64,000 bases of DNA, from the NCBI GenBank assembly GCA_045597645.1, contig JAZLKM010000027.1:5184-69183 (forward strand), read 5' to 3'. Origin of the DNA: Lachnospiraceae bacterium (GTDB lineage: Bacteria; Bacillota; Clostridia; Lachnospirales; Lachnospiraceae). Each line of letters opens with the position of its first letter. Position 1 is the stretch's first letter. The translations under genes were made by a program, and so were the position numbers. Under the pieces are notes generated by a model, which saw nothing but the letters and a program-made list of their open reading frames with translations, did not search any database and was not told the DNA's origin. This document shows positions 5,956 to 62,233 of this stretch, in pieces.

Positions 5956-5961
5956 AGATTC

Positions 5962-6663: not shown

Positions 6664-6714
6664 ATAGTCTCTCTGTTCTAGTCAAGGCTCGCCCTGACAA
6701 TTCTTTATTCGAAA

Positions 6715-7872: not shown

Positions 7873-8891
7873 TACTCTAAATCCTCCAGTCTGACAGGCT
7901 CGTCTATTGACACTGCCTTGGTCAGAACCCTGCCGATTAGCTCGGGCTTTTTATTCTCAGGAATTCCTATGTTTGGCTTTTTAGCAGCCAAATCCGATGC
8001 CACCAATACATGTCCCGGCTCCAGATTTCTATTGTAATAGATGCTCTTTGAGAACATCTGCTTTAGATTCTCCCTATCCACATCTCTTTTTGAGAAGTCA
8101 GTACGGGCATTTTTCATAGCTGTTATAGCCTTAGCACCATCCACGATACGCTTCAAATCATCCAGTGATACTGACGCCTTTACATCCGGTCCAAACATAT
8201 ATGGGCTCATGGTGACATGCACCTCGGCTACCATAGCACCCAAAGTCATAGCTGCAAGGCAAGGATATATAGTGGCTGAATGATCTGAAATTCCTATCAC
8301 GCAATCCTCATACCTGCTCTTCATCTGAGTTATAAGTCCTATATCTATCTGCTCTGGCAGCGACGGATATGCTGTAACACATTGGAAAATAACCGTCTCG
8401 TTTCCGTTCTTTCTTACCTTATAGACATGCCTGTCCAGATCCTCCCATGTAGATAATCCTGATGAGAGGAGAATTGGCTTACCTGTAGCTATAGCTGCAT
8501 CCAGAAGTGCCTCGTTAAATATCTCTCCTGCGCCAAATTTCATAGCTGGCACGCCTATTTTATCCAAAAGCTCTAAGGCCTTCATGGAAAATGGAGAGCT
8601 AAGGAAATCTATGCCTCTGTCGTCTGCATGCTTTTTAAGCCCTGCCCACTGCTCATCAGTAAATTCCATTCGCTCCCAGTAGTCATACCTAGTCTGATCC
8701 TCGAAACTAAATGGCACTCTGAATGGCTCGAGCGGTGTGCTCTCCTGTGACGCTATATGTGTCTGAAACTTAACGGCTGACACTCCCTGATCTGCCACTG
8801 CATCAATAAATGCATGGGCTTGACCCAACGAACCATCATGGTTCTGGGATATCTCGGCGATTACATATGGCTTTTCCAATTCTCTAAACAT
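7872..8891 (-). CDS. neuB: N-acetylneuraminate synthase family (NeuB/LegI-type nonulosonate synthase) with C-terminal SAF domain
   Basis: Motifs YVIAEISQNHDGS, KFQTH and ISDHS, plus a C-terminal SAF-like tail. The track ORF starts at 8924, but that ATG has no Shine-Dalgarno (SD). The in-frame ATG at 8889-8891 is preceded by AGGAGAAG with 8-nt spacing. Confidence 0.85.
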   Translation of the reverse strand: MFRELEKPYVIAEISQNHDGSLGQAHAFIDAVADQGVSAVKFQTHIASQESTPLEPFRVPFSFEDQTRYDYWERMEFTDEQWAGLKKHADDRGIDFLSSPFSMKALELLDKIGVPAMKFGAGEIFNEALLDAAIATGKPILLSSGLSTWEDLDRHVYKVRKNGNETVIFQCVTAYPSLPEQIDIGLITQMKSRYEDCVIGISDHSATIYPCLAAMTLGAMVAEVHVTMSPYMFGPDVKASVSLDDLKRIVDGAKAITAMKNARTDFSKRDVDRENLKQMFSKSIYYNRNLEPGHVLVASDLAAKKPNIGIPENKKPELIGRVLTKAVSIDEPVRLEDLE

Positions 8892-8971
8892 AAGCTCTTC
8901 TCCTGTTGATGCTATGTCCGCCATTCTATGGCATTTCTGCCATCAAAACCTTGCTCATTTCACAGCCCAGC

Positions 8972-10330
8972 TTACTTTATCGGTGATAGGCAGTAAATAT
9001 TATGCTTTAGTTCCTTAATGTCTACTTGCACTGGCTCTCCTATCAAATCACATGCACGGCTGATAAGGTTCGACATTTTCTTTTTTGATATATAATCAGT
9101 ATTCTTTCCGATGTTTTTCTTCTTAAGTGCTCTAATCCTGCCATGGATGATGGTCCACTGCTCATGAAGTGTACGAGGACACTTTATCTGGACTGCACCT
9201 TCCTTGTACTCATTCTCATCAAAGGCATCAGCTATGATGCTGGCAAAAAGCTCATCGCTGTGGAGAAGATTGTATTTATATCTATCCTCCTTCTCCTTAG
9301 TTGCAAAGCCTTCCCAGCCCTTTTCTCCATTCAGATAAGCAAGTGCCATATCTGCAAGCTCCTGTGGCGACTTCGCTACGTCGCTAAGGCTCCTTATAAA
9401 ATCCGAAAACATCAGCTTATATGGCTCGAACTCATCTGGCTCATACTGTATGCTGATTCTTCCACCGCAGTATGCTTCGTAGGCTGTAGAGCATCCGCTG
9501 TGAATTAATAGGGCTGCCCCCGCAATCCAGCCGTTGGACTCTCCTTCTCTTATTACGTGTACATTCTCATATGGCGCAAGGTCTTCAATAAACCTGTTTA
9601 TAAACATCGTATCACCCGGATGAGGTCGTACGATTATCTGCCTGTCAACAGATTTTGCGAGGTACTGTATTGCCTCTATAAACGTCTCATAATATCTGAG
9701 CTTAAATTCTCTTCTATCCTTGTAGAAGTCCACAGTGTAGCTGGTGACTCCATCGCCATTTACTCTGGTATAGTCCTCACCTCGCCTTGATTTTCCGAAG
9801 CTTGAGCTTACCAGTATATAGTCGCCATACTTTTCCTTGTATCGCTTGGCATCCTCATTGTAAAAAGCCATTCCGTTTCTCAGAAGGTCCATTCTCGGAT
9901 TACCTGCCACTATGCATTTAGGTAGTAACTCAGGCATTACCTCCTCTATGACATCCCGGTGCATATCTCCCCACAGAAACATCTTCTCAAAGTTAGCTGT
10001 GGTGTCCTTGCCGAGTCTTGTCTCTAGGTAAAGCTGGGCTGTTGTAAGTATCAGTCCTTCCTCATCCAGGGCATACACCTTGCAGCCACTGTCTGCGATT
10101 CGCTTATGCTGTGGATACTTAGCGTTGGTAAAGTCCTTATCCAGAAACACTCCTGTGCTGAGGTTTCCTGAAAGCCTGCTTCTGACACAGGTATCCTCGC
10201 CCAGCACCACTGTGTAGCCGCGTCTTACCAGTTCAGTGCCCAACAGTACCTTGGCACTCAGCTCCCTGGCCATGCTTTCCACTGGTATATAGGCTACTTT
10301 ATCAAGCTTGCTATCTGTGTTTTGGGGCAT
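8972..10330 (-). CDS. Orphan surface-carbohydrate biosynthesis protein; candidate nonulosonate (sialyl) transferase
   Basis: 452 aa, soluble-looking, immediately upstream of neuB in the operon. It contains DEEG (res 88-91) and RPHPGD (res 235-240). These resemble the D/E-D/E-G and HP motifs of GT-B bacterial sialyltransferases. The motifs are short, so the functional call is tentative. Confidence 0.4.
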   Translation of the reverse strand: MPQNTDSKLDKVAYIPVESMARELSAKVLLGTELVRRGYTVVLGEDTCVRSRLSGNLSTGVFLDKDFTNAKYPQHKRIADSGCKVYALDEEGLILTTAQLYLETRLGKDTTANFEKMFLWGDMHRDVIEEVMPELLPKCIVAGNPRMDLLRNGMAFYNEDAKRYKEKYGDYILVSSSFGKSRRGEDYTRVNGDGVTSYTVDFYKDRREFKLRYYETFIEAIQYLAKSVDRQIIVRPHPGDTMFINRFIEDLAPYENVHVIREGESNGWIAGAALLIHSGCSTAYEAYCGGRISIQYEPDEFEPYKLMFSDFIRSLSDVAKSPQELADMALAYLNGEKGWEGFATKEKEDRYKYNLLHSDELFASIIADAFDENEYKEGAVQIKCPRTLHEQWTIIHGRIRALKKKNIGKNTDYISKKKMSNLISRACDLIGEPVQVDIKELKHNIYCLSPIK

Positions 10331-12082
10331 CTATCTCTCCCTCTCAATCTTGCCATTTTCCACTCTGTACACCATGTCGCAGCCCTCTATTGTGGTAAGT
10401 CTGTGAGCTATGATCACGAGTGTCTTCTTGCCATGAAGTGCGTTGATTCCCTCCATGATGGCTGCCTCTGTCTCGTTGTCAAGTGAGGCTGTAGCCTCAT
10501 CAAAGATAAGTATTTCAGGATTTGTGTAGAGTGCTCTTGCTATACCGATTCTCTGTCTCTGTCCTCCTGAAAGTCTGATACCTCTCTCTCCTATCTTGGT
10601 ATAGATACCGTCTGGCGAAGCATCTACAAAATCTAGTAGCTGAGCCTCTGCCAACGCATGTCTTATCTTCTCCTCATCGAAGTCACCCTTATCCACACCG
10701 TATGCCACGTTGGCTGCTATTGTGTCATCAATAAGATATATTGACTGTGGTATGTAGCTAAGCTTCTCGAGCCACTGTCCGTAGTGGGCTCTTATGTCAG
10801 TTCCATCGCAGAGTACTGCACCCTTCTGTGAGTGTAGCAAGCCCAAAAGTATATCTATGGCTGTGGTCTTGCCCGCTCCTGATGGTCCTACTACTCCTAT
10901 GGATGAGCCAAATGGTATTTTCATATTGGCGCCATCTAATACATATTTCTCCACATTTGGATAGTGGAAAGATATGCCGGACAGCTCGCAGCAATCATCA
11001 AAAGTCAGATCCGGCACTCCGTCATAGTCTGCCGGCATCTCATATGTAACCCCAGTGTACTCGCTCTCATCTATAAGCAGCAGATTCCTAAGGACTGCAT
11101 CAATATTGAACTCATAGTAAGGAATGCTGTTAATTACGTTGGTCATTCTGTTAATGCATGGCAAAATACGCACTGCTGCCACCATAAATGCCGATAGCGC
11201 AGGTATCATTGCAACCATACTAAGTCCATTATTTGAAAGTACTAAGAGCATGAGAAGTACTGCGCTTATTGTCACTGCCTCTATGATAAGATGAGGTGCA
11301 TACTTAAGCACAGTGAACCCTCTCTCGTATTTTGCTTTAAGCGCAGAATGTTTTACATAATGCTCTACAAAAAAATCCTCTTTTCGGTTGACCTTTGTGT
11401 CTTTAATCCCGCCTACTGCCTGTAGCAGCCACTTGTTTATCTTTTCATTCTCTACTCGTGACTCGTGACCTAAATACTGTATTTTTTTACGCACGGCTTT
11501 CACGATTATAAGCATCTCTATCAGCAGAACGACAGAAACTATACCTGCCATGAGCGGGTTAATCCAAAATACGACAATGGCAAGTGCGATACATACTATT
11601 CCATCCGATGCAAAATCCATGAAATTGCTAAGCAACGTATATGAGCGATTTACATCTGTTCCAATAAGCTGTATTACTTCGCCTGTTGAGGTGTTTAGAT
11701 AATACTCGTACGGACGATGTATAAATATTTCCATCAACTGCTGCTGAAGCTCTATCTGATTTGTTGTCAAAAATTTCTGCAGTATATGATACTCCAGCAT
11801 CTGATATGCATCCTTGACTATGAAAATCGTGATCAAGGCCACAAGCATAACATTTATAAACTGCTGGCTACTGTTTATGTGGAGTATATTGCAGGCGATT
11901 ATGGCATATTCATTAGTGCAGTAGAACTGGTCATTAGTGACTGCCGTCACAAGTGGCACTATCATTCCTACGCCGGCTATGTCCATGAGCGCAGCAATCA
12001 GCATTAAAAACATAACGCCTACTGCCTGCTTCTTCTGCTTTTCAGTTAGAAAACGTAATAGCTTTTTTACTACTCTTTTCAT
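10331..12082 (-). CDS. ABC half-transporter (fused TMD-NBD, MsbA/PglK/Wzk-type exporter)
   Basis: 583 aa. N-terminal 6-TM type-I exporter domain. The NBD carries Walker A GPSGAGKTT, signature LSGGQRQRIGIARAL, Walker B ILIFDEATASLD and H-loop IIAHR. Confidence 0.9.
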   Translation of the reverse strand: MKRVVKKLLRFLTEKQKKQAVGVMFLMLIAALMDIAGVGMIVPLVTAVTNDQFYCTNEYAIIACNILHINSSQQFINVMLVALITIFIVKDAYQMLEYHILQKFLTTNQIELQQQLMEIFIHRPYEYYLNTSTGEVIQLIGTDVNRSYTLLSNFMDFASDGIVCIALAIVVFWINPLMAGIVSVVLLIEMLIIVKAVRKKIQYLGHESRVENEKINKWLLQAVGGIKDTKVNRKEDFFVEHYVKHSALKAKYERGFTVLKYAPHLIIEAVTISAVLLMLLVLSNNGLSMVAMIPALSAFMVAAVRILPCINRMTNVINSIPYYEFNIDAVLRNLLLIDESEYTGVTYEMPADYDGVPDLTFDDCCELSGISFHYPNVEKYVLDGANMKIPFGSSIGVVGPSGAGKTTAIDILLGLLHSQKGAVLCDGTDIRAHYGQWLEKLSYIPQSIYLIDDTIAANVAYGVDKGDFDEEKIRHALAEAQLLDFVDASPDGIYTKIGERGIRLSGGQRQRIGIARALYTNPEILIFDEATASLDNETEAAIMEGINALHGKKTLVIIAHRLTTIEGCDMVYRVENGKIERER

Positions 12083-12090
12083 TCTATTAA

Positions 12091-13044
12091 TTATCCCCAG
12101 TTGGTATGATCGTTTTTACCAAGCAAAGCTTTTATATAGTAGTCTACTCTGCTTATTACTCCCTTGATGCCTTTTTCCTTTAGGTTGCGCCAAAATCCTC
12201 TCCAGTGCGTCTGAGCTTTGGTCTCTCTCTTAAGTGGCTTGTCGTTGTAAGGCGATGCTTTGTACGCCTCGTACCACTCATCTCCGCAAATGATATAGTC
12301 GTATTTCCATGGCTTGCCGCCTGTATCATAGTGGATTATCGTGGCATCCGCTGTGAGTGCTTCCTTGCTGTCATATTCTGTGCCATACAGGCCGTTTAGC
12401 ATTTCCACAGTGTAATTATTCTTCTGTATCCCCAGAAACTTATTAGGCGTACAGTTATACTTAAATGAGATATTCCCTATGCGGTCTCCCAGCACCATAT
12501 TAAATGTCTGCTGGTCCATTGAACCTCTGTCGCCCAGAGATTTCCTAACCTCCATCAATTGTGGTGCCAGCTTCTCATCTCTCATAGCCTTGGCATTGAA
12601 TAGCAGTATTCCTGCATTTATCAGCTTCCTGTCTTCAAAAAGCATATCAAGGCTAGGTACTCCTGCCAGGACATTGTCGCCAAGCTCAGTCTCGTACAGC
12701 TCAGTCAAGTCCCCTCTTACACAGATATCTCCATCCAGGTACACCAGCTTGTCATACTGCGGTATGAGATCACAGATATTAAACTTAAGACAGCATGCAA
12801 TCGGTATATGCGCCAGCTGCTTTATATCTCTGTACATGTCAAGAGACGTCTCAATTATATGTAGATTACTGTCATTGCCTTCCACTGACTTTTCCAGCTC
12901 TCTTCTGGCATTATCAGAGCATTCTGCCATTACCACGAAAATGTCATATTCTGTGGTGGTCGCCTTATTCCTCAGTAGCGTCCATATGGCCACACCTGTC
13001 TGCATGACAAAATTTTCATCTGTTATAAATACTACAGGTATCAT
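12091..13044 (-). CDS. Glycosyltransferase family 8
   Basis: IPVVFITDENF..., then YLDGDICVRGD (DxD) and other GT8/LgtC-like patterns. I prefer the ATG at 13042-13044, which forms an ATGA overlap with the upstream stop. The track start at 13059 is the alternative. Confidence 0.8.
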   Translation of the reverse strand: MIPVVFITDENFVMQTGVAIWTLLRNKATTTEYDIFVVMAECSDNARRELEKSVEGNDSNLHIIETSLDMYRDIKQLAHIPIACCLKFNICDLIPQYDKLVYLDGDICVRGDLTELYETELGDNVLAGVPSLDMLFEDRKLINAGILLFNAKAMRDEKLAPQLMEVRKSLGDRGSMDQQTFNMVLGDRIGNISFKYNCTPNKFLGIQKNNYTVEMLNGLYGTEYDSKEALTADATIIHYDTGGKPWKYDYIICGDEWYEAYKASPYNDKPLKRETKAQTHWRGFWRNLKEKGIKGVISRVDYYIKALLGKNDHTNWG

Positions 13045-14057
13045 CCCTTGAATTTCCATTCTCTCTTCTGCTTATGCTTATTTCGAGCAGTCCAAATCTT
13101 GTACCAGATGCCTGGGTGTTTATATCCCAATGTTACAAGCTGCCTCTTGCGTTTACCCACACTGCCAGCTTCAATATCTAACACCCAGCCTTTATATTGC
13201 TCAAACAACTCTGCGTAACCTTGATGCGACTTGCTCACTTCATCCGGGAGCTCAGCTCTAATTCTGGTCATTATATTGCAGGCTGCATATTTTGCCAGAA
13301 GGACATTCTTCTCGTCCTTGTCAGCGTAAAATTCTATCTGCTCCATGCGCGCTGTCAGTGAGTCGAACAGTACTCTTGCCCTCTGAGCGTCATCATGAGT
13401 GATACTATCACCGCGTTTAGACTGATAGAAATATGTCTCTGCATATACCAGTCCCACTTTTTCTGCTGCCCAGTACAGCTTGTAAGTGGTGGCCATATCT
13501 TCGCAGAGTCTTCCAGTTGGAAAACCAATTCCATCAAATACACTGCGCTTATACAGCTTTGTCTGTACCACGGTTGCTCCACTGCCATACCTATTTTCCA
13601 GCTGGCATCTGGCGAATTCCCGTCCGCTCATCACTACCACTTCCTGGTCCTCAGGTACGTACTCCAGTATGGTGGTATCATCCATGAAGGAATATACCAG
13701 GCACTCCGCTATATCCAGCTGATTTTCGCTCATGGCATTGTAAAGTATCTCTATATGCCTTTGATGCACCAGGTCGTCACTGTCCACATATGTAATGAGC
13801 CCCCCCGTAGTCTTGTTAAGCCCTACGTTTCTGGCATTTGCCAGATCGCACATCTCCTCATATACAATTCTAATGCGCTCATCTCTTGAAGCCCATTCCT
13901 CAGCCAATGCCTGGCTATTATCCTTTGAAGGCTGCACTACCAGCAGTATCTCCAGGTTGTCATAGGTCTGGTTTACGATGCTGTTTAGGCATCTGTCCAG
14001 ATATTTTTCTACGTTATAGACCGGTACAACTACCGATATCAGCGGTCTATCTGTCAT
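13041..14057 (-). CDS. Glycosyltransferase family 2
   Basis: 338 aa with N-terminal ISVVVPVYNVEKYLDRCLNSIVNQTY and a DSDD motif. It overlaps the upstream GT2 by 4 nt. Confidence 0.88.
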   Translation of the reverse strand: MTDRPLISVVVPVYNVEKYLDRCLNSIVNQTYDNLEILLVVQPSKDNSQALAEEWASRDERIRIVYEEMCDLANARNVGLNKTTGGLITYVDSDDLVHQRHIEILYNAMSENQLDIAECLVYSFMDDTTILEYVPEDQEVVVMSGREFARCQLENRYGSGATVVQTKLYKRSVFDGIGFPTGRLCEDMATTYKLYWAAEKVGLVYAETYFYQSKRGDSITHDDAQRARVLFDSLTARMEQIEFYADKDEKNVLLAKYAACNIMTRIRAELPDEVSKSHQGYAELFEQYKGWVLDIEAGSVGKRKRQLVTLGYKHPGIWYKIWTARNKHKQKREWKFKG

Positions 14058-15025
14058 TTCATTCCTCTTATCTTTTCATACATCTGCTCACTTATCGTAA
14101 ATAGATGTAGCTTTATCTTGGATTTGATTCCAAGGGGCAGCCCCTTCAATTCATTTCCAAGGACTTCTCTGTACCTATGGCGCAGCTCATTAACATCTAC
14201 CAGTGGCTCATCTTCCTTTTTGCCTAGCAATATAAGATGTGCCAGATTACTCTCGTATCTGTCCCAGGCAATAGCACAAAGCTCTTTGTCGCCACGTGAC
14301 TTGTAGAACTCTGCCTGCTCCTTAAATGCCTCCAGATGGTCATTGATTTTAGACACATATCTCTGGTCAGCCATTATGCTACCCTCTCGCTGTCTGTAGT
14401 AACACAGCTGAGCCGGTAGATATGCCACTTTCTCCAAATCATAGAGCACCAGATGTGTGGTGGCTGCATCCTCAAACACCCTGCCCTCCGGATATCTGAC
14501 CCTGGCAAACTGCTCTGCTCTATACAGCTTGTTCCAAGCTATTACGCTAAGACCTGTCATAAGGTCTCCTTGGAGCAAAAGGACCTGCCTTCCTGTATAA
14601 TAACTAGGTTCATCTCCCAGCCCTTCTACCTCTTTCATATTTTCCAGGGTAGCATTTTCATCCACAAACGTCCTGCCGCAGAACACCAAGTCTGCACTGC
14701 TCTCATCCATAGTATTCATGAGTAGCTCCAGCGCCCTTGGATGCAGAGCATCATCTCCATCGAGGAAAAACAAATACTCACCCTTCGCATTCTCAATTCC
14801 AGTATTTCTGGCTGCTGAAAGGCCTCCATTTTCCCGATGAATCACTCGAATCCTGCTATCGTATGATGCATATGCATCACTTAATCTGCCGCTGTCATCA
14901 GTGCTGCCATCGTCCACCAGAATTATCTCGTAGTCGCTATAAGTCTGTCCTAATACAGAGTCCACGCAGCACTGGAGATATTTTTCTATGTTGTATATAG
15001 GTATGATTACACTAATCATTGGCAT
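14054..15025 (-). CDS. Glycosyltransferase family 2
   Basis: 323 aa with ISVIIPIYNIEKYLQCCVDSVLGQTYSDYEIILVDDGSTDDS and LDGDD. Confidence 0.9.
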   Translation of the reverse strand: MPMISVIIPIYNIEKYLQCCVDSVLGQTYSDYEIILVDDGSTDDSGRLSDAYASYDSRIRVIHRENGGLSAARNTGIENAKGEYLFFLDGDDALHPRALELLMNTMDESSADLVFCGRTFVDENATLENMKEVEGLGDEPSYYTGRQVLLLQGDLMTGLSVIAWNKLYRAEQFARVRYPEGRVFEDAATTHLVLYDLEKVAYLPAQLCYYRQREGSIMADQRYVSKINDHLEAFKEQAEFYKSRGDKELCAIAWDRYESNLAHLILLGKKEDEPLVDVNELRHRYREVLGNELKGLPLGIKSKIKLHLFTISEQMYEKIRGMK

Positions 15026-15038
15026 TCCCGGTATCTTG

Positions 15039-16004
15039 CTATTTTGACAGCTCTATGTATCTCTCACTCTTGGGAGGGTAGTCATTGCAATCAAGTCTGG
15101 GCAATAGCATCGCGTCCTCCTGCCCTATGATTGCTACCCTCGGCTCCACAGTCACTCCCAGCTTCGCTCCTATTGACCTGCAATACTCACAAGTGCCCTC
15201 GTTATAACCGCCGTAGGGATAGTTCATTACCCACGCGTTTCTATCTATGAACTCATCTATCGCATCAAGTCCCTTGTCCACATCCCTGCGCATATCCTCA
15301 TCGTTAAGGCTGGACAGCCAGTAATGGCTGTAGCCATGGCAGCCTATGAACATGCCGTCTGCCTTCATGAGTCGAAGCTGATCTCTGTTTAGGTACAATT
15401 CATTCGCAAATATTTTCTGCGGCACACCGACGTACTGATCAAACAGCTCATTGGTTATTATGTCTCGCAGCCTCTCCGGCACACCCTTTTGCAATATTCT
15501 CTTCACAAAGATTGTGTCAGGACCATCGAATTTGCCCGCTATGGCATACTGCTCATATAGCTCTGCCGCCGTAGGAATATCAAATTCAGCCCCCCTATAG
15601 TAGTCCAGCTTTTCCTTTACTGTGGCCACAAGCTTTGATATCTCTCCTGATGCCAGCACGAAGTGTATCTTGTTGACCCCCAGCAGCTCTCTCTCCTCTA
15701 ACACATTGCCTGGTACGAAAAATGAACCCTGCATACCGTGCTCTTTTAGCACTGGAAAAGCCGCTGAATAATGATCTATATATCCGTCATCGAAGGTAAG
15801 CAATAATGCTTTTTCAGGTAGCAGCTCTCGCTCTGGGTGCTCCTGAGCCTCAATCACCTGCTCCATTGTTACCACATTGAAGTTGGCGTCAAAGAACTCT
15901 ATCTGTTTTTTGAAGAGCTCATAGTCGAGCCCCTTTATTTCAGGGTATCTGCTGCCCTTCAAATCTCTTACAAAGTGATATACAGCTATCTGTAACTTCT
16001 GCAA
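15039..16004 (-). CDS. Polysaccharide deacetylase (NodB homology domain), predicted cytoplasmic
   Basis: 321 aa with LLTFDDGYIDHY (NodB motif 1) and a later CHGYSH. I see no signal peptide or TM segment. Confidence 0.8.
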   Translation of the reverse strand: MQKLQIAVYHFVRDLKGSRYPEIKGLDYELFKKQIEFFDANFNVVTMEQVIEAQEHPERELLPEKALLLTFDDGYIDHYSAAFPVLKEHGMQGSFFVPGNVLEERELLGVNKIHFVLASGEISKLVATVKEKLDYYRGAEFDIPTAAELYEQYAIAGKFDGPDTIFVKRILQKGVPERLRDIITNELFDQYVGVPQKIFANELYLNRDQLRLMKADGMFIGCHGYSHYWLSSLNDEDMRRDVDKGLDAIDEFIDRNAWVMNYPYGGYNEGTCEYCRSIGAKLGVTVEPRVAIIGQEDAMLLPRLDCNDYPPKSERYIELSK

Positions 16005-16031
16005 TTTATATACCTCTCTAGCTAGGTCCCA

Positions 16032-17138
16032 TTATGTATTCGGCCTATCCTGATCGCCATCTGCCTTAAATATTCTAGTGCCCTCAGTGCAGTAAAAGCT
16101 CCACATGTCTACATTGCGCTGCTCAAACGGATCAAAATACTGAGGTATGATATTTTCACTCTCATATCTATCAGCGAATCCCGCTTCAAGTATGTAGTCT
16201 CTTGTAAGCCCGTACTCGTAAAAGTCTACATATTCAAGGTTCTCTGCCACAAGTCTGTCAGTGAAAAACTTTCTGGTGCCAGCTAACAGCATCTCATCTC
16301 CTATGTAATCAACGATACGCAGCACCTTGGCTCCGTTAGCCTCCACGACTCTGGTCATGAGCAGCGCCCCCACTGCTCCGTCGTCGTATGGCAAGCCCCA
16401 CACCTCATAGGTGAATCTGGGATGTTCAAAATATCTATGGCTCAGATACTCGTTATCCTTGTACGGGATTACATCAAGGCTCTCAACATCGAACGCCACT
16501 TTAAGCTCATCCATAGTATTAAATCTTATTGGATTCACCTGTCGGCTTATTGGATTTACCCGTGGATCGGTTGCGCTCTCAGCGTCTTTGCTGCATTTCT
16601 GCGCCCCTGCATCAGTATCATTTATGCCTTCAGCATTTCGGCTTTTATTTATAACTGCTATTTTGAACTCAGCCTTCTGAGGATTTAGCATGTAGAAATG
16701 CTCCATCCTGACAACCTTGCGCTTAAAGACTCTCTCCTCTATGCGTCCGGTGGTATCAAGAGTCATTCCGTTGCCAAGCTCATCTCTGCATCCGCTTAAT
16801 GCTCCAACTCTTTTGGCTAGCTCCAGGCCCAGTAGTGGCAGATTACCTCTGTCGCTATTTGCCTTCCAGAGGCTCCCCCAGGTGTCGTAGACCTTCGCAT
16901 TAGGTCCTAGCGCTGTTGGCAGGTATCCAAAGACTGCCTCTATCTGATTTGTGTCCTTGTCTATCGCTATTACAAAATAGACCTTACCGTCACGCTGATA
17001 GCAGTACTCGAAGAACTCTCTGTCTCTTGAGAGAAGATGATTTTTCCTCCAGTATGTACCTATGAAGTACATTATCTGTGGGATATCTTCCGGTGTCGCC
17101 AGTCGGATATCATATTTTTCATCAAAATGATTTGCCAT
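16032..17138 (-). CDS. Orphan two-lobed protein, GNAT/Fem-like by eye; candidate carrier-protein-dependent acyl/aminoacyl transferase
   Basis: 368 aa. The N-terminal part looks like an acetyltransferase (IRLATPEDIPQI...). A low-complexity linker contains a 7-codon tandem duplication (VNPI). The stop overlaps... more precisely, its start codon overlaps the carrier-protein stop by 1 nt. Confidence 0.35.
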   Translation of the reverse strand: MANHFDEKYDIRLATPEDIPQIMYFIGTYWRKNHLLSRDREFFEYCYQRDGKVYFVIAIDKDTNQIEAVFGYLPTALGPNAKVYDTWGSLWKANSDRGNLPLLGLELAKRVGALSGCRDELGNGMTLDTTGRIEERVFKRKVVRMEHFYMLNPQKAEFKIAVINKSRNAEGINDTDAGAQKCSKDAESATDPRVNPISRQVNPIRFNTMDELKVAFDVESLDVIPYKDNEYLSHRYFEHPRFTYEVWGLPYDDGAVGALLMTRVVEANGAKVLRIVDYIGDEMLLAGTRKFFTDRLVAENLEYVDFYEYGLTRDYILEAGFADRYESENIIPQYFDPFEQRNVDMWSFYCTEGTRIFKADGDQDRPNT

Positions 17139-17368
17139 TATTCCTCTATAAGTGACTCCATAAGTGCGATTATTTTGTCCTTATTTCCAAAATTATCTGC
17201 TATTACCAGGGATGCATCGATCTCGATTCCGAATTCCTCCTCCAGGCTGTATACAATGTCAATCAGTCCGAAGCTGTCGATTATGCCGTCCTCAATCATG
17301 TTGTCGCCGTCATAGTCGATAATCTCATCGTTAGCATCCTCAAGTATTGCCAGTATTCTCTCTTCCAT
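17138..17368 (-). CDS. Acyl/peptidyl carrier protein, DltC-like (D-alanyl carrier protein type)
   Basis: 76 aa, acidic. The phosphopantetheine Ser sits in IIDSFGLIDIV, the DSFG context typical of DltC. A good SD (GAGGAGA) lies 5 nt upstream. Confidence 0.8.
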   Translation of the reverse strand: MEERILAILEDANDEIIDYDGDNMIEDGIIDSFGLIDIVYSLEEEFGIEIDASLVIADNFGNKDKIIALMESLIEE

Positions 17369-17444
17369 AGCGTCTCCTCATTTATGCGGTTATAGTCCTA
17401 GCACCGCCCAATTTCTATTTTGCTTATAGCTATCAACTTATCAG

Positions 17445-18305
17445 CTAGTCAGCACTTGGTCTTGCTACAAGTGTCAATTTATAGTCTGCTGTCTTTTTGT
17501 ATCCAAACTCATCATGGAGCCTTAGTGAGGATATATTTTTCTCCTCCACCCAGGCATTTAGTCGCCGCACATCAGGGCGGGCTGAAACTATCTCTATGAG
17601 CCTTCGTTCAACCTGCTTCGAGTATCCTCTGCACCTCATATCGACGGGTGTATATACATATTCCTCTGTAGCTATTCCACTTTTTATCCTGTATATCGCA
17701 GCAGCACACAGCTCATCCGAAAGGCTTGCTATGACAATATCTGTCTCATCCATATAGGCCTGCAGTCTGCTTCTTGGTGGAAGCTGAGCCCCTATCGGGT
17801 CAAAGCAGTCATATATCTGCTCATAGGCTTCTATTGTCTTGTCTTCGGAAAATGTCACCTCGCTCTTGGCGCTTAATGCATCGGCACCCTCATTTTTCGG
17901 CTGCGCACTCACCTGCTGTAATTCACTCGCATGCAGTTTTATTTCATAGCGGTTGTATTTTTTTGCTGCCTCAAATCCATTTTGCAAAAGAGCTGCTGTA
18001 ACTTCGCTGCAGCGCTCCTTGCCAGTCTTCTCGTATATCTCAGTGATGACAGGCAGCTGTGTCTCGTACTCTGGCATCACATACTCAGTGGGCTTATTTG
18101 TGATAAAGTACAATCTGCACAGGTCATCCTGCTTCACCAACACGCTCACCGAATTATCACCCGCGGTCCACAGGACCTGCGTCATTTTGAGGCTGTCCTC
18201 TATCTCAGTGCCTATCATTGGATAATTGGTTACCACCCGACCGTCTGACTTTAGCCTTTTATATTCTTCTGCTATTAGATTTGCATCTGTGAGTACCTGC
18301 CACAT
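17445..18305 (-). CDS. GNAT-family acyltransferase with N-terminal extension
   Basis: 286 aa. The C-terminal region has GNAT motif-A-like RCRGYSKQVERRLIE and a downstream NISSLRLHDEFGY. Confidence 0.55.
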   Translation of the reverse strand: MWQVLTDANLIAEEYKRLKSDGRVVTNYPMIGTEIEDSLKMTQVLWTAGDNSVSVLVKQDDLCRLYFITNKPTEYVMPEYETQLPVITEIYEKTGKERCSEVTAALLQNGFEAAKKYNRYEIKLHASELQQVSAQPKNEGADALSAKSEVTFSEDKTIEAYEQIYDCFDPIGAQLPPRSRLQAYMDETDIVIASLSDELCAAAIYRIKSGIATEEYVYTPVDMRCRGYSKQVERRLIEIVSARPDVRRLNAWVEEKNISSLRLHDEFGYKKTADYKLTLVARPSAD

Positions 18306-18313
18306 ACTATTCC

Positions 18314-19831
18314 CTACAGATTTTCCTTCAGCTTTACTCTGTCTATCTTGCCGTTTGCGTTAAGTGGCATCACTGGTACATTTACCACCTTGCCAGGTAT
18401 CATGTATTCAGGCACCATCGTCTTTAGCTTTTCTGACACCCATGCCTTTTCTATAGCGGTCTCGCTCTCCACTATGAGTACAATACGGCTGTGCTTCTCG
18501 TCATATATACAGCAGCATCTAGGTATCTCATCCAGTGATGATGCCGCTGTCTCTATCTCGCCCAGCTCTATTCTGTGTCCCAGGTGCTTTATCTGAAAAT
18601 CCTTGCGGCAGGAGTAAAGTATCTCGCCTCTCTCATTGTAGGACACCAAATCTCCTGTCCTGTATATTTTTTCCTCATATACCGTGTTGAGTGGATTCTG
18701 CACAAAGGCTGCATCTGTCTTCTCAGGGTTGCCGTAATATCCTACAGCCAGCGATGTACCCTGCACACAGAGCTCTCCCACGATTCCAGGCTCTGTGATC
18801 AGCTTATCCTCGTCATCCAATAGAAGTATGCGAGTGTTCGGCATCGGACCACCTATGGGGAGTGTCTCATCATCGTCAAACTCTCTGTCCACTATGTAGA
18901 AGGTACATGCGTCCGTAATCTCTGTCGGTCCATAGAGATTGGCATATACTGCATTAGGTATAAAGCTCCTCCAATAGTTGAGCTGCTTATTGGGCATCAC
19001 CTCTCCGCAGAACAGTATGCGCTTTAATACGCTAGACATATCCACATTCTTTAGAGCTCGAAGCTTCGCCACGGCTATAAGTGCTGACGGTACCCAGAAA
19101 ATAGTATTGATATCATTTTCTTTTATGTACTCCAAAAGAGGTACCGGCTGTGAGAAGAGAGCTGACGGTATGATATATAACGTAGCTCCTGTCTTCATGC
19201 ATGAATAAATGTCGAGTATTGAGTTGTCAAAGTAAAATGGTGCCTGATTGCCAAAGGCATCTTCACTGGTAACTTCAAACTGCGATGTCACCCAGTCTGT
19301 GTAATCAATCACAGATCTGTGACGTATGCCTACTCCCTTTGGCACCCCAGTGGAGCCTGAGGTAAAGAGCACATATAGCAAATCCGTATCTAGTATCTGG
19401 GCTGTAGCCTTTGCTACATTGGCCTCGTCATCCGGAGCCGGTGTAACATCATCATAGATTATCACCTCTCCATCATATCCAAACTCTGCCAGACCGGCCT
19501 GTAGCTCTCTGGTAGTTATGATAATCTCCGGCTCTAATATCTCCAGGATTTTCTGCACTCTGCTGCTTGGCATGGTTACATCTATAGGTGAATAAAAATC
19601 CCCTGCATATGCGATACCTGCAAAGCATACTAGTACGCCCGTGCTTTTCTCCATATAGACAGCCACCGGCTTGCCACTCTCTGGTTGAATCTGTAGGACT
19701 TTTGCTGCAATTGCCTGCGCCATTTTGCGCCATTGTCCAAATGTCACCTGTCCATTCTCGTCTACCAGCGCCGCCTTATTTTCATATACTCTGGCAGTCT
19801 CGTCGAGCCATTGCGTTACATTAATCTGCAT
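18314..19831 (-). CDS. Adenylate-forming enzyme, DltA-like amino acid/hydroxy acid--carrier protein ligase
   Basis: 505 aa with ANL core motifs LFTSGSTGVPKGV, YGPTE, YRTGD and GKIDR. It is a stand-alone A domain of DltA size and the first gene after the promoter. Confidence 0.9.
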   Translation of the reverse strand: MQINVTQWLDETARVYENKAALVDENGQVTFGQWRKMAQAIAAKVLQIQPESGKPVAVYMEKSTGVLVCFAGIAYAGDFYSPIDVTMPSSRVQKILEILEPEIIITTRELQAGLAEFGYDGEVIIYDDVTPAPDDEANVAKATAQILDTDLLYVLFTSGSTGVPKGVGIRHRSVIDYTDWVTSQFEVTSEDAFGNQAPFYFDNSILDIYSCMKTGATLYIIPSALFSQPVPLLEYIKENDINTIFWVPSALIAVAKLRALKNVDMSSVLKRILFCGEVMPNKQLNYWRSFIPNAVYANLYGPTEITDACTFYIVDREFDDDETLPIGGPMPNTRILLLDDEDKLITEPGIVGELCVQGTSLAVGYYGNPEKTDAAFVQNPLNTVYEEKIYRTGDLVSYNERGEILYSCRKDFQIKHLGHRIELGEIETAASSLDEIPRCCCIYDEKHSRIVLIVESETAIEKAWVSEKLKTMVPEYMIPGKVVNVPVMPLNANGKIDRVKLKENL

Positions 19832-19918: not shown

Positions 19919-19947
19919 ATTTTATCAAATTTAGAGGTGATATGCAA
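19919..19947 (-). promoter_or_regulatory. Sigma-70-type promoter candidate for the 19831->2 operon
   Basis: On the minus strand: TTGCAT (19947-19942), a 17-nt spacer, then TAAAAT (19924-19919). This gives a ~80-nt leader with GGGAG 7 nt before the ATG at 19831. Confidence 0.5.
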
Positions 19948-19960
19948 ATCTGTTGACCAT

Positions 19961-20006
19961 CACAAAAAAGCCAAAAGACCTGCTCTGAGCTGGCCCTTTT
20001 GGCTTT
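19961..20006 (-). terminator. Rho-independent terminator ending the 55.5->20.0 kb transcription unit
   Basis: Perfect 11-bp stem (19967-19977 pairs with 19996-20006) around an 18-nt partly self-pairing loop. On the minus strand it is followed by TTTTTTGTG. It overlaps the stop codon of the GT4 at 20005. Confidence 0.75.
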
Positions 20007-28542: not shown

Positions 28543-28895
28543 TACTTCGCCTTCTGTTCCATGTACTCATAGATGTCCTTCATAGTGATGACATCAACCA
28601 ATGCAAAATCTTTGTCCACCACGGGCATCATGGTAATCTGCTTTACTTTAAACTTGTCGTATGCCTTCTCAAGATTTTTCTCTGTCATATACATAAATGA
28701 CGGATTGATGATACCTGATACCTTGTTGAAAAGACTGGTTCCAGCGCTCAAAGCTCTAATGATATCACCCTGACTTACTACTCCTATTACCTTATCACTA
28801 CTTGATAATACAATAGCTACGCGCTCGTGATTTTTCTCAAAATTCTCTATCGTCTCTTTGATGGTATAGTCCTCATAGACGCAATGTAGATCCAT
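28542..28895 (-). CDS. CBS-domain pair protein (stand-alone)
   Basis: The track ORF extends to 29003 and overlaps the radical SAM gene. The in-frame ATG at 28893-28895 is preceded by TAAGGAGGGACTT. The resulting 117-aa product has two CBS-like repeats (VIGVVSQGDIIRAL; MMPVVDKDFALVDVITMKDI). Confidence 0.7.
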   Translation of the reverse strand: MDLHCVYEDYTIKETIENFEKNHERVAIVLSSSDKVIGVVSQGDIIRALSAGTSLFNKVSGIINPSFMYMTEKNLEKAYDKFKVKQITMMPVVDKDFALVDVITMKDIYEYMEQKAK

Positions 28896-28905
28896 AAGTC
28901 CCTCC

Positions 28906-29886: not shown

Positions 29887-29895
29887 TTCTTCTCC

Positions 29896-32077: not shown

Positions 32078-32078
32078 A

Positions 32079-50503: not shown

Positions 50504-50505
50504 CT

Positions 50506-52416: not shown

Positions 52417-52470
52417 AGTTAATCCTCAACTCACTTTTCCCACATGGACTGATTCCAGGTTTATTTCGTA

Positions 52471-53655: not shown

Positions 53656-53658
53656 CGC

Positions 53659-62220: not shown

Positions 62221-62233
62221 CGTCACTGTCTCT

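What the first reader, a model, noticed from the sequence alone, without database searches (positions are those of the whole stretch)
15039..19831. DltA/DltC-type carrier-protein acylation cassette without DltB/DltD, wired into a glycan operon with two GNAT-fold proteins and a cytoplasmic NodB deacetylase
The first five genes after the promoter at about 19.9 kb are:
- a 505-aa adenylate-forming enzyme of DltA size with the ANL core motifs (LFTSGSTGVPKGV, YRTGD, GKIDR)
- a 286-aa protein with a C-terminal GNAT motif A (RCRGYSKQ)
- a 76-aa carrier protein whose Ser sits in DSFG, the DltC-type context rather than the fatty-acid ACP context
- a 368-aa two-lobed orphan
- a 321-aa NodB-family deacetylase (LLTFDDGYIDHY) with no signal peptide or TM

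The classical Dlt pathway needs DltB (an MBOAT) and DltD to deliver D-Ala outside the cell. I can recognise neither anywhere in the 64 kb. All five products look cytoplasmic, and they are translationally packed with GT2/GT8/PGT/nonulosonate genes.

Inference: this is a cytoplasmic route. An amino sugar would be de-N-acetylated, then N-acylated with an amino acid or hydroxy acid delivered from the carrier protein. The second GNAT might then cap it. N-aminoacyl and N-hydroxyacyl amino sugars are known chemically in O-antigens and capsules. An ACP plus AMP-ligase set has been proposed for tetronate N-acylation of perosamine in Vibrio cholerae O1. To my knowledge this particular gene combination is not a described system.
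Basis: partly seen in the sequence, partly recalled or inferred. Interest (0 to 1): 0.8.

Follow-up and report, generated by a model that had tools for sequence, protein, structure and literature searches.

The report
Carrier-protein aminoacylation module for nonulosonate sugars
Five tightly packed genes at the head of a surface-sugar operon probably strip the acetyl group from a sialic-acid-like sugar and replace it with a capped amino acid delivered on a small carrier protein; the enzymes for such sugar decorations have not been identified, so this gives testable candidates.

Summary
All five ORFs exist at the stated coordinates with the stated domains. No DltB (MBOAT) or DltD homologue occurs anywhere in the 64 kb.

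The 368-aa "orphan" is a tandem-GNAT protein (tGNAT). It defines a large unannotated family found in 432 species-level loci. In loci with full flanks, a NodB deacetylase lies within 10 kb in 45 of 53, an AMP-ligase in 47 of 53, and NeuB/NeuC/CMP-transferase genes in 32 of 53. Some members sit inside flagellin-glycosylation islands.

The activating partner varies. It is either an acyl-type ligase with a carrier and an oxidoreductase, or, as in the window, an NRPS-type amino-acid adenylation enzyme with a carrier.

The closest orthologues of the window's A–GNAT–carrier trio (A 64–72% identical) sit in Dlt-like operons beside an MBOAT gene. In those operons the middle slot holds either a homologue of the 286-aa GNAT or a formyltransferase.

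The cassette is therefore best read as a portable "amino acid + N-cap" donor module rewired from an MBOAT export route to a cytoplasmic NodB/tGNAT route. That route most likely remodels the N-acyl group of a nonulosonic acid.

No biochemical evidence exists. The amino acid, the acceptor sugar and the reaction order are all inferred.

The parts
19919..20003 (-). Probable start of the transcription unit. It has a terminator-like hairpin after the upstream GT4 gene, then sigma-70-like hexamers (TTTGCA-18-TAAAAT). A GGGAGA ribosome-binding site precedes the A gene.
   Evidence: Hairpin dG -19.3 kcal/mol, z -2.6. The promoter match is a consensus hit only and is not enriched over shuffles.
18314..19831 (-). 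Free-standing NRPS-type amino-acid adenylation enzyme (505 aa). It is predicted to load an amino acid onto the carrier protein.
   Evidence: Passes TIGR01733 (335.5 bits, cutoff 317.4) and fails the DltA equivalogs. The Asp for the alpha-amino group (D202) and the catalytic Lys (K495) are present. The pocket code DNLFLCLDAK is found in 117 of 119 close homologues.
17445..18305 (-). 286-aa tandem-GNAT protein. It is predicted to be the N-acetyltransferase that caps the alpha-amine of the activated or transferred amino acid.
   Evidence: Acetyltransf_1 hit on the C-terminal lobe. AF2 model pLDDT 90; Foldseek matches MshD, MAB_4324, PamZ and VipF. Homologues (24-27% identity) occupy the same A-to-CP slot in L093 and abut the A gene in L089. 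A formyltransferase fills that slot in L058, L059, L091 and L092.
17138..17368 (-). 76-aa carrier protein with its phosphopantetheine attachment site at Ser32.
   Evidence: PP-binding 19.0 bits and DltC models 32 and 25 bits, all below cutoff. The Ser is conserved in 51 of 51 cassette carriers. 62-66% identical to the carriers of the MBOAT-type operons L091 and L092.
16032..17138 (-). 368-aa tandem-GNAT protein (tGNAT) of an unannotated family. It is predicted to be the carrier-protein-dependent N-acyltransferase that acts on the de-N-acetylated sugar.
   Evidence: No Pfam, NCBIfam or PDB sequence hit. AF2 pLDDT 86; Foldseek top hits are N-myristoyltransferases, Eis2 and the tandem GNAT MAB_4324. 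432 species-level loci. Co-occurrence statistics. Its start codon overlaps the carrier's stop codon (TAATG).
15039..16004 (-). Cytoplasmic CE4/NodB-family de-N-acetylase (321 aa).
   Evidence: Polysacc_deac_1 82.8 bits, and a PgaB N-terminal-like match. D72, D73, H223 and H227 are conserved in 61 homologues. No N-terminal hydrophobic segment.
3581..15025 (-). Rest of the operon: GT2, GT2, GT8, ABC exporter, TIGR04396/BFO_1060-like putative nonulosonate transferase, NeuB-like synthase, NeuC-type hydrolysing 2-epimerase, CMP-nonulosonate synthetase, D-2-hydroxyacid dehydrogenase and phosphoglycosyl transferase.
   Evidence: NeuC scores 358.5 bits (cutoff 235.9). NeuB scores 243 bits (cutoff 400), so it is divergent. 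The 452-aa protein scores 241.8 bits on TIGR04396 (cutoff 125).

Best explanation
The five genes form a cytoplasmic N-acyl remodelling module for a nonulosonic acid, a nine-carbon sialic-acid-like sugar made by the NeuC/NeuB/CMP-transferase genes of the same operon.

**Proposed sequence of steps (all inferred).**
1. The adenylation enzyme activates one specific, probably small, amino acid. It loads it as a thioester on the phosphopantetheine arm of the 76-aa carrier.
2. The 286-aa tandem GNAT acetylates the free alpha-amine. This most likely happens while the amino acid is still on the carrier. Sister cassettes formylate at this step instead.
3. The NodB enzyme removes the N-acetyl group that the sugar inherited from GlcNAc. 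This is the future N5 acetyl of the nonulosonate. It may act at the nucleotide-sugar stage or the CMP-sugar stage.
4. The 368-aa tandem GNAT transfers the N-acetyl-aminoacyl group from the carrier to the freed amine.
5. The modified sugar is CMP-activated and then built into a surface glycan. The BFO_1060-like transferase and the GT2/GT8 enzymes do the building, and the ABC transporter exports the product.

**Shown here:** the gene content, the predicted folds (AlphaFold2 models with Foldseek matches), conserved catalytic residues, synteny and co-occurrence.

**Inferred:** every chemical step, the identity of the amino acid, the acceptor and the order of steps.
For: **The tGNAT and its partners.**
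- The tGNAT has a tandem-GNAT fold. The family has no annotation and is widespread: 412 or more proteins and 432 species-level loci.
- In 53 loci with at least 8 kb on both sides, NodB is within 10 kb in 45, an AMP-ligase in 47, and NeuB/NeuC/NeuA in 32.
- In Lysinibacillus (L003, L010) the module lies inside a complete legionaminic-type pathway in a flagellin-glycosylation island.

**The donor side is modular.**
- The partner is either an acyl-type ligase with carrier and GFO oxidoreductase, or an NRPS-type A-domain with carrier.
- The cassette A-domains carry at least six pocket codes.
- Similarities are discordant. Loci with the best A match (66%) have a tGNAT only 40-41% identical. Loci with the best tGNAT match (50-51%) have an A-domain only 40-41% identical.

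**The cap slot.**
- It holds a GNAT in the window and L093, and a formyltransferase in L058, L059, L091 and L092.
- The closest structural analogues of the 286-aa GNAT include MshD.

**Intact machinery.** The NodB catalytic residues are conserved. The carrier Ser is conserved in 51 of 51. The carrier and tGNAT genes are translationally coupled.

**Independent precedent for the logic.**
- AlmEFG is an A + carrier + cytoplasmic transferase system without DltB or DltD (PMC4278540).
- Yersinia ruckeri O1, which makes legionaminic acid, has a serotype-specific set of carrier, AMP-ligase, reductase and deacetylase genes (PMC5552943).
- N-acetyl-alanyl legionaminic acid exists in Vibrio (PMC7371886).
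Against: - No biochemical or genetic data exist for any member of either GNAT family.
- The nearest orthologues of the A-cap-carrier trio are next to an MBOAT gene, not a tGNAT. In the wider A-family the split is MBOAT 11 of 26 against tGNAT 1 of 26. The trio's usual job is therefore a Dlt-like export route. A DltB-like partner could exist outside the 64 kb.
- NeuB/NeuC/NeuA genes are absent from the 10-kb flanks of 21 of 53 tGNAT loci, so the acceptor need not always be a nonulosonate.
- The operon's NeuB scores below every equivalog cutoff, so the sugar type (Neu, Leg or Pse) is unresolved.
- The Foldseek TM-scores for the tGNAT are only 0.45-0.50.
- The 286-aa GNAT could have a different acceptor altogether.
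Confidence: 0.55

Rival explanations
1. Split Dlt-like system. The A-GNAT-carrier trio supplies an N-capped amino acid to an MBOAT (DltB-like) and DltD-like pair encoded elsewhere in the genome. That pair would esterify an extracellular polymer. Under this reading, the adjacent tGNAT and NodB genes do something unrelated to the carrier.
For: The three closest A-domain orthologues sampled, and L089, belong to this kind of trio. In L091-L093 the operon reads MBOAT-A-(Fmt or GNAT)-CP, and L091 and L092 add a membrane-anchored 356-aa protein. The window's carrier is 62-66% identical to the carriers of L091 and L092. In the wider A-family, MBOAT is the commonest neighbour.
Against: - No MBOAT or DltD-like gene is in the 64 kb. 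In the three MBOAT-type operons where the A gene's upstream neighbour was seen (L091-L093), the MBOAT gene is the one immediately upstream.
- The carrier's stop codon overlaps the tGNAT start codon.
- NodB-tGNAT-A-Fmt-CP recurs independently in Roseburia (L059) and Methanomicrobium (L058).
- The tGNAT family is linked to an AMP-ligase in 47 of 53 loci, and a carrier was detected within 6 kb in 29 of 53, whatever the ligase type.
Confidence: 0.15
2. Same module, different acceptor. NodB and the tGNAT remodel the N-acetyl group of an ordinary hexosamine unit (GlcNAc, GalNAc, ManNAc or a diNAcBac-type sugar) of the repeat unit, possibly when it is already lipid-linked. The nonulosonate is not the target.
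For: - 21 of 53 tGNAT loci show no NeuB/NeuC/NeuA gene within 10 kb.
- The operon also encodes GT2, GT2, GT8 and a PGT, and the window has a PglF/E/D-like cluster.
- N-aminoacyl hexosamines are known in O-antigens (general knowledge).
Against: - The module is embedded between the pathway genes of legionaminic-type clusters. In L003, L010, L026 and L028 the order is aminotransferase-tGNAT-...-NodB-NeuC-NeuB.
- The A-type loci most similar to the window in NeuB and NeuC (L029, L032, L034, L038) put NodB directly before NeuB-NeuC-NeuA.
Confidence: 0.2
3. The roles of the two GNATs are swapped or otherwise different. For example, the 286-aa GNAT transfers the aminoacyl group, and the 368-aa protein uses acyl-CoA, or aminoacyl-tRNA as Fem-type tandem GNATs do.
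For: Both proteins are tandem GNATs. Foldseek also lists aminoacyl-tRNA-dependent transferases (MprF, A-PGS, Sba18/Sbb17) among the matches of the 286-aa protein. Six tGNAT loci with full flanks show no ligase within 10 kb.
Against: - The 286-aa family is absent from 80 of 80 tGNAT loci of the genome scan. It is interchangeable with a formyltransferase, which cannot transfer an amino acid.
- It also occurs in MBOAT operons, where MBOAT is the transferase.
- The tGNAT co-occurs with ligase and carrier sets of two unrelated ligase types.
Confidence: 0.1

Closest known systems
Dlt pathway (DltA/DltC/DltB/DltD) of Gram-positive bacteria
   Same: Both have a free-standing adenylation enzyme and a carrier of about 76-80 aa with a D-S-F/L Ser context. 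The Cys equivalent to BcDltA Cys-269 is kept (C275), as is the amino-binding Asp (D202) (PMC4176424). The closest orthologues of the trio sit beside an MBOAT gene.
   Different: - The DltA and DltC equivalog scores are far below cutoff.
- No MBOAT or DltD is in the window.
- An extra N-capping enzyme sits between A and the carrier.
- The acceptor-side enzymes are a cytoplasmic NodB and a tandem GNAT, which predicts an amide on a sugar amine rather than an ester on teichoic acid.
- The pocket code is DNLFLCLDAK. B. subtilis DltA, recalled from memory and not verified, reads DLMTMCTVAK.
AlmEFG glycine modification of Vibrio cholerae lipid A
   Same: It is a DltA-like ligase and a DltC-like carrier feeding a transferase on the cytoplasmic side, without DltB or DltD (PMC4278540).
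   Different: AlmG is a lipid A acyltransferase that makes an ester on a hydroxyacyl chain. Here the putative transferase is a soluble tandem GNAT paired with a deacetylase. No lipid A-type acyltransferase domain was found in the operon.
Mycothiol biosynthesis (MshB deacetylase, MshC Cys ligase, MshD tandem-GNAT acetyltransferase)
   Same: The chemical logic is the same: de-N-acetylate an N-acetyl amino sugar, amide-link an amino acid, then acetylate its amine. MshD is among the best structural matches of the 286-aa GNAT (TM 0.59-0.60).
   Different: MshB belongs to the LmbE family, not CE4/NodB. MshC is a CysRS-like ligase that needs no carrier protein. The product is a soluble thiol, not a glycan building block. 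The likeness is in logic and fold only, with no sequence homology for the first two steps (pathway knowledge from memory).
Nonulosonate tailoring modules (PtmG/H acetamidino formation; the deacetylase + formyltransferase pair in the Kuenenia legionaminic cluster; carrier + AMP-ligase sets in Y. ruckeri O1 and the Aeromonas flagellin islands)
   Same: These are also tailoring genes embedded among legB/C, neuB, neuC and legF-type genes. They change the N-acyl group at the nucleotide-sugar stage (bioRxiv 10.64898/2026.04.20.719630; PMC5552943; PMC7874193).
   Different: The papers I could search describe none of these with an NRPS-type A-domain, a capping enzyme and a tandem-GNAT transferase. The carrier-dependent sets are only listed as annotations, with no function assigned.
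Vibrio cholerae O1 RfbK-N (tetronate N-acylation of perosamine)
   Different: The donor is a hydroxy acid, not an amino acid. The 4-amino group of perosamine is free, so no deacetylase is needed. The transferase family is different. This system resembles the acyl-ligase flavour of the tGNAT cassette more than the window's flavour.

Membership tests
Dlt D-alanylation system | The ligase meets the DltA equivalog models. | tested here: not met
   TIGR01734 scores 325.9 bits (cutoff 559.85) and NF003417 scores 333.4 bits (cutoff 476). NCBI names the close homologues 'amino acid adenylation domain-containing protein'.
Dlt D-alanylation system | The carrier meets the DltC equivalog models. | tested here: not met
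   NF003464 scores 32.1 bits (cutoff 68) and TIGR01688 scores 25.2 bits (cutoff 52.35).
Dlt D-alanylation system | DltB (MBOAT) and DltD are encoded with the ligase and carrier. | tested here: not met
   No MBOAT or DltD Pfam hit in any window ORF of 150 aa or more. tblastn with MBOAT and DltD-like queries finds nothing at E<=1. The rest of the genome could not be searched.
Dlt D-alanylation system | The pocket selects D-alanine. | tested here: inconclusive
   The Asp197 and Cys269 equivalents are present (D202, C275). Six of the ten code positions differ from a B. subtilis DltA sequence recalled from memory (PMC4176424).
Carrier proteins (PP-binding) | A conserved Ser for phosphopantetheinylation on a small helical protein. 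| tested here: met
   Ser32 aligns with a Ser in 51 of 51 cassette carriers. The Pfam score of 19.0 bits is just under the 20.8 cutoff. Modification itself was not tested.
NRPS-type amino-acid adenylation domains | Passes TIGR01733, and has the Asp235 and Lys517 equivalents. | tested here: met
   335.5 bits against a 317.4 cutoff. D202 and K495 are present.
GNAT superfamily (tandem GNAT) | Two GNAT-fold lobes. | tested here: met
   - 368-aa protein: Foldseek E about 1e-10 to N-myristoyltransferases, Eis2 and MAB_4324. No sequence-profile hit.
- 286-aa protein: matches MAB_4324, MshD and the clavulanate-pathway tandem GNAT, plus Acetyltransf_1 above cutoff.
CE4 / NodB deacetylases | Polysacc_deac_1 domain with the Asp-Asp and His-x3-His metal and catalytic motifs. 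| tested here: met
   82.8 bits against a 23.1 cutoff. TFDD at residues 70-73 and HGYSH at 223-227, at least 95% conserved in 61 homologues.
AlmEFG-type lipid A aminoacylation | An AlmG-like lipid A (lysophospholipid-type) acyltransferase partner. | tested here: not met
   No such domain appears in any Pfam scan of the operon or the window.
Nonulosonic acid biosynthesis locus | A NeuB-type synthase, a hydrolysing 2-epimerase and a CMP-transferase in the same operon. | tested here: met
   NeuB family 181 bits. NeuC TIGR03568 358.5 bits against a 235.9 cutoff. CTP_transf_3 86 bits. NeuB is below the Neu5Ac and Pse synthase equivalog cutoffs, so the sugar type is unresolved.

The most novel reading that the evidence does not exclude
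A portable 'amino acid + N-cap' donor trio (adenylation enzyme, capping acetyl- or formyl-transferase, carrier) has been rewired. It normally feeds a Dlt-like MBOAT export route. Here it has been moved onto a previously unrecognised tandem-GNAT/NodB pair.

Under this reading, gut Lachnospiraceae make a sialic-acid-like sugar that carries an N-(N-acetyl-aminoacyl) group at N5. This may be a true neuraminic-acid-type sugar, because the operon and its closest relatives lack a 4,6-dehydratase/aminotransferase pair. The 368-aa family would then be the missing general N-acyltransferase behind the non-acetyl N-acyl diversity of bacterial nonulosonates and flagellin glycans.
Probability: 0.35. Interest if true: 0.8.

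Novelty: new variant of a known kind. Interest (0 to 1): 0.66.

Why it matters
Bacterial nonulosonic acids (legionaminic, pseudaminic and neuraminic types) carry many N-acyl groups: alanyl, N-acetyl-alanyl, N-methyl-glutamyl, hydroxybutyryl, glyceroyl and formyl. These groups shape serotype, phage and antibody recognition, and flagellar function. The enzymes that install the non-acetyl groups are largely unknown.

This analysis points to a concrete, widespread candidate machinery. It consists of an unannotated tandem-GNAT family (432 species-level loci), a cytoplasmic NodB deacetylase and exchangeable carrier-protein donor modules. The question therefore becomes directly testable in vitro.

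The analysis also shows that a Dlt-like donor module can be plugged into at least three acceptor systems: MBOAT, tGNAT/NodB and PglD-like transferases. This matters for how cell-surface chemistry diversifies in gut and rumen Firmicutes. It also matters for genome annotation, where these proteins are currently "hypothetical" or generic "adenylation domain" proteins.

Tried and rejected
**What led nowhere**
1. Looking up the window's own proteins by exact sequence found no gene on record. The source genome stayed unidentified, so the rest of it could not be searched for MBOAT or DltD.
2. A profile search of the tGNAT family against PDB sequences found nothing. Only the fold comparison was informative.
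3. The word-indexed homologue search for the 286-aa GNAT returned only the protein itself. The exhaustive search was needed to find its sparse family.
4. I tried to get a true DltA sequence for a pocket comparison. The PDB alignments shown were all LgrA. The best plasmid hit turned out to be another A-GNAT-CP cluster, not a dlt operon. The DltA code I used is from memory and is flagged as such.
5. The metagenome scan recovered only more distant A-domain relatives (41-62% identity). It therefore measures the wiring of the wider family, not of the DNLFLCLDAK orthogroup.
6. Literature searches found no functional study of this module, of Cj1307/Cj1308, or of an MBOAT + formyltransferase Dlt variant.

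**Readings considered and rejected**
- A classical dlt operon: the equivalog scores fail and there is no DltB or DltD.
- An AlmEFG-type system: there is no AlmG-like acyltransferase.
- A secreted or periplasmic polysaccharide deacetylase: the NodB protein has no signal peptide or transmembrane segment.
- Horizontally acquired foreign DNA: the GC content is uniform at 0.45-0.46.

Full report
**1. Observation**

- The 505-aa protein is an ANL-superfamily enzyme. It passes the NCBIfam amino-acid-adenylation domain model (335.5 bits, cutoff 317.4). It fails both DltA models (326-333 bits, cutoffs 476 and 560).
- The 76-aa protein is carrier-like (PP-binding 19.0 bits, cutoff 20.8). It fails the DltC models. 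Its Ser32 aligns with a Ser in all 51 carrier homologues collected from related cassettes.
- The 286-aa protein has a C-terminal GNAT domain above the Pfam cutoff.
- The 321-aa protein is a CE4/NodB deacetylase (82.8 bits) with no N-terminal hydrophobic segment. Its Asp-Asp and His-x3-His motifs are at least 95% conserved in 61 homologues.
- The 368-aa protein matches no Pfam or NCBIfam model, and no PDB sequence.

Pfam scans of every ORF of 150 aa or more in the 64 kb found no MBOAT and no DltD family member. tblastn with MBOAT and DltD-like proteins from orthologous operons found nothing at E<=1.

The genes are tightly packed. The carrier's stop codon and the 368-aa protein's start codon overlap as TAATG. 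Tight spacing continues through two GT2 genes, a GT8, an ABC exporter, a TIGR04396/BFO_1060-like protein, NeuB, NeuC, a CMP-transferase, a 2-hydroxyacid dehydrogenase and a phosphoglycosyl transferase.

A terminator-like hairpin (dG -19.3 kcal/mol, z -2.6) follows the upstream GT4 gene. After it come promoter-like hexamers and a ribosome-binding site before the A gene. An operon start near 19.9 kb is therefore plausible, although the promoter match alone is not above chance.

**2. The two GNAT-fold proteins**

An AlphaFold2 model of the 368-aa protein (pLDDT 86, pTM 0.85) matches only tandem-GNAT enzymes in the PDB. These are N-myristoyltransferases, Eis2 and MAB_4324 (E about 1e-10, TM 0.45-0.50).

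The 286-aa protein (pLDDT 90) is also a tandem GNAT. Its best matches include MAB_4324, the clavulanate-pathway tandem GNAT, mycothiol synthase MshD (TM 0.59-0.60), a glucosamine N-acetyltransferase and PamZ.

**3. The 368-aa family (tGNAT) is large, unannotated and syntenic**

The family has at least 412 homologues, and every source name given is "hypothetical" or "uncharacterized". It occurs in 432 loci among species-representative genomes. Most are Lachnospiraceae, Paenibacillaceae and Lysinibacillus. Others are in Helicobacter cinaedi, Flavobacterium, Succinivibrio and the archaeon Methanomicrobium mobile.

I annotated 80 of these loci with a panel of query proteins. Counts below are for the 53 loci with at least 8 kb on both sides:

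| Neighbour | Loci |
|---|---|
| NodB homologue within 10 kb | 45 of 53 |
| NodB homologue within 3 kb | 33 of 53 |
| AMP-ligase-family gene within 10 kb | 47 of 53 |
| NeuB, NeuC or CMP-transferase gene within 10 kb | 32 of 53 |

In Lysinibacillus capsici the module sits inside a flagellin-glycosylation island. The gene order there is flagellin, Maf, 4,6-dehydratase, aminotransferase, tGNAT, GFO oxidoreductase, AMP-ligase, carrier, NodB, NeuC, NeuB, PglD-like acetyltransferase, nucleotidyltransferase and CMP-transferase.

The natural home of the tGNAT/NodB pair is therefore nonulosonate biosynthesis.

**4. The donor side is modular**

The ligases in the first three loci I examined are acyl-CoA-synthetase-like. 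They are only about 20% identical to the window's enzyme, and they lack the FDxS Asp that binds an alpha-amino group.

Across the 80 loci there are two main flavours:
- an acyl-type ligase with a carrier and a GFO oxidoreductase, sometimes with an FkbM-type methyltransferase;
- an NRPS-type A-domain with a carrier.

The A-type cassettes carry at least six different ten-residue pocket codes. The window's code, DNLFLCLDAK, is found in 117 of 119 close homologues (64-70% identical). Some A-type cassettes add a PLP-dependent decarboxylase, an ornithine cyclodeaminase or a methyltransferase.

Similarities between the parts are discordant. Loci with the most similar A-domain (66%) have a tGNAT only 40-41% identical to the window's. 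Loci with the most similar tGNAT (50-51%) have an A-domain only 40-41% identical, with a different code. Donor and acceptor parts have therefore been recombined repeatedly.

**5. The A-cap-carrier trio comes from a Dlt-like system**

I looked up the genomic context of four close A-domain orthologues: P0123, P0125, P0165 and the one in L089. They are 64-69% identical to the window's enzyme.

In L091, L092 and L093 the context is an operon reading MBOAT - A - X - carrier. L091 and L092 also have a membrane-anchored 356-aa protein with a weak DUF1574 (SGNH-like) hit, which I call DltD-like. In L089 the A gene abuts a 279-aa GNAT and the contig then ends, so no carrier or MBOAT was seen there.

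X is a formyltransferase in L091 and L092. It is a 276-279-aa GNAT in L093 and L089. These GNATs are homologous to the window's 286-aa protein (24-27% identity, E about 1e-28 in a small database).

The window's carrier is 62-66% identical to the carriers of L091 and L092.

The same trio, with a formyltransferase in the X slot, is joined to NodB and a tGNAT in Roseburia (L059) and Methanomicrobium mobile (L058). In a metagenome contig (L096) the trio follows a PglD-like hexapeptide transferase.

In the wider A-family, sampled from metagenomes at 41-62% identity, 26 loci had adequate flanks. MBOAT is the neighbour in 11 of them and a tGNAT in 1.

The window's arrangement is therefore a minority wiring of a donor module whose usual partner is an MBOAT.

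**6. Mechanism proposed**

None of the following steps has been shown.

1. The A-domain loads one amino acid on the carrier.
   - The amino acid is probably small. The pocket is lined by Phe, Leu, Leu and Cys, and it keeps the Cys that helps DltA select D-Ala (PMC4176424).
   - Its identity is unknown.
2. The enzyme in the X slot caps the alpha-amine.
   - The cap is acetyl in the window and formyl in sister cassettes.
- The trio also works in MBOAT operons, which have no sugar-side enzymes. Capping on the carrier is therefore more likely than capping after transfer.
3. NodB removes the acetyl group inherited from GlcNAc, which is the future N5 acetyl of the nonulosonate.
   - The tight NodB-tGNAT linkage argues for this position: an amine newly introduced at C4 would need no deacetylase.
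4. The tGNAT transfers the capped aminoacyl group from the carrier's pantetheine arm to the freed amine.
   - GNATs bind the same pantetheine arm in acyl-CoA.
   - Use of acyl-carrier-protein donors by GNAT-fold enzymes is established elsewhere (general knowledge).

Three points bear on which sugar is modified.
- The operon's NeuC passes its equivalog model.
- Its NeuB is divergent (243 bits, cutoff 400).
- The operon has no 4,6-dehydratase/aminotransferase pair, and neither do the loci with the most similar NeuB and NeuC (L029, L032, L034, L038).

A neuraminic-type sugar with a single, remodelled N5 is therefore possible. However, a PglF/E/D-like cluster at 49-55 kb could supply a legionaminic-type precursor. 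The sugar type is unresolved.

**7. Comparison with what is known**

- **Dlt pathway.** The ligase and carrier resemble DltA and DltC in architecture and ancestry. They fail the DltA and DltC equivalog tests, and the DltB/DltD requirement is not met in the window.
- **AlmEFG.** This system shows that a DltA/DltC-like pair can feed a cytoplasmic-side transferase without DltB or DltD (PMC4278540). Its transferase and acceptor are different.
- **Mycothiol synthesis.** It has the same chemical order: deacetylate, add an amino acid, then acetylate. It ends with a tandem GNAT (MshD), but uses unrelated enzymes for the first two steps.
- **Nonulosonate biology.** Several published observations bear on it.
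  - Deacetylation and formylation have been shown at the nucleotide-sugar (CMP-sugar) level in Kuenenia, whose legionaminic cluster encodes a deacetylase and a formyltransferase (bioRxiv 10.64898/2026.04.20.719630).
  - Carrier + AMP-ligase (+ deacetylase) sets are listed, without assigned function, in Yersinia ruckeri O1 and in Aeromonas flagellin islands (PMC5552943, PMC7874193).
  - N-acetyl-alanyl legionaminic acid is a known product in Vibrio (PMC7371886).

I found no paper that assigns a function to the tGNAT family, to the 286-aa GNAT family or to the MBOAT + formyltransferase variant. The library covers only open-access papers and preprints, so this is an absence in that library only.

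**8. Verdict**

- the target is probably a nonulosonate;
- the 368-aa protein is the probable transferase, and the 286-aa protein the probable cap;
- the donor trio is a Dlt-like module that has been rewired.

The main uncertainty is that no biochemistry exists and that only 64 kb of the genome is visible, so a DltB-like partner elsewhere cannot be excluded.

I rate this a new variant of a known kind, with moderately high interest. It supplies concrete, testable candidates for a long-standing gap: how non-acetyl N-acyl groups are installed on bacterial sialic-acid-like sugars.

Noticed in passing
window 27364-33754 (-): A second nonulosonate cluster. It has a WecB-type non-hydrolysing epimerase, a CBS-domain protein, a radical SAM/SPASM enzyme (28906-29886), NeuC, NeuB, a CMP-transferase and a GT4. 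A radical SAM enzyme inside such a cluster is unusual and may make another modified sugar.
   Followed up: partly
window 49207-55542 (-): A PglF-like dehydratase, a DegT aminotransferase, a PglD_N acetyltransferase and a small phosphoglycosyl transferase. Together they look like a diNAcBac-type cluster. It could also supply a legionaminic-type precursor to the NeuC and NeuB of the cassette operon.
   Followed up: partly
L091 8486-13712; L092 8465-16290; L093 8357-12638; L089 4474-6840: A Dlt-like operon in Lachnospiraceae and Butyrivibrio. In L091-L093 the order is MBOAT - adenylation enzyme - (formyltransferase or tandem GNAT) - carrier, and L091 and L092 add a membrane-anchored 356-aa protein with a weak DUF1574 hit. 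L089 shows only the A gene abutting a 279-aa GNAT before the contig ends. This implies esterification of an extracellular polymer with an N-formyl or N-acetyl amino acid. I found no description of it in the searchable literature.
   Followed up: partly
L096 5421-9600: A third wiring of the same A-GNAT-carrier trio, directly after a 520-aa PglD_N + hexapeptide-repeat transferase. PglD-like hits also lie near related A-domains in L117, L131, L137, L139, L149, L150 and L171.
   Followed up: partly
L058 8938-13686 (Methanomicrobium mobile): An archaeal methanogen carries NodB-tGNAT-A-formyltransferase-carrier. Its A-domain is 66% identical to the window's and has the same pocket code. This suggests transfer between domains of life in the rumen or gut.
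   Followed up: no
L086 4310-9667 (Paenibacillus cellulosilyticus 2.7-Mb replicon): The A-tandem GNAT-carrier trio is here combined with an SDR, an AAC(3)-like acetyltransferase and a FabH-like KAS III. This looks like a small-molecule cluster rather than a glycan cluster.
   Followed up: partly
L091 1356-4111: A CBASS defence system (SAVED, SMODS/DncV-like and E2-CBASS genes) lies a few kb upstream of the Dlt-like operon.
   Followed up: no
window 1-64000: Every ORF of 200 aa or more except one (a 211-aa plus-strand ORF lying inside a minus-strand gene) is on the minus strand, and GC skew is uniformly negative. The whole window is a run of at least four glycan loci, with three phosphoglycosyl transferases at 3581, 23681 and 49856. 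Several large proteins have no family hit: 25029-27362 (777 aa), 37578-39794 (738 aa), 60502-62268 (588 aa) and 21051-22508 (485 aa).
   Followed up: no
L041 12808-13980; L061 279-1337 and 3979-5151; L064 9219-9950: Other amino-acid-type tGNAT cassettes carry a PLP-dependent decarboxylase of the Orn/DAP/Arg fold, an ornithine cyclodeaminase or a methyltransferase next to the A-domain. This suggests dedicated supply or tailoring of non-proteinogenic amino acids.
   Followed up: partly
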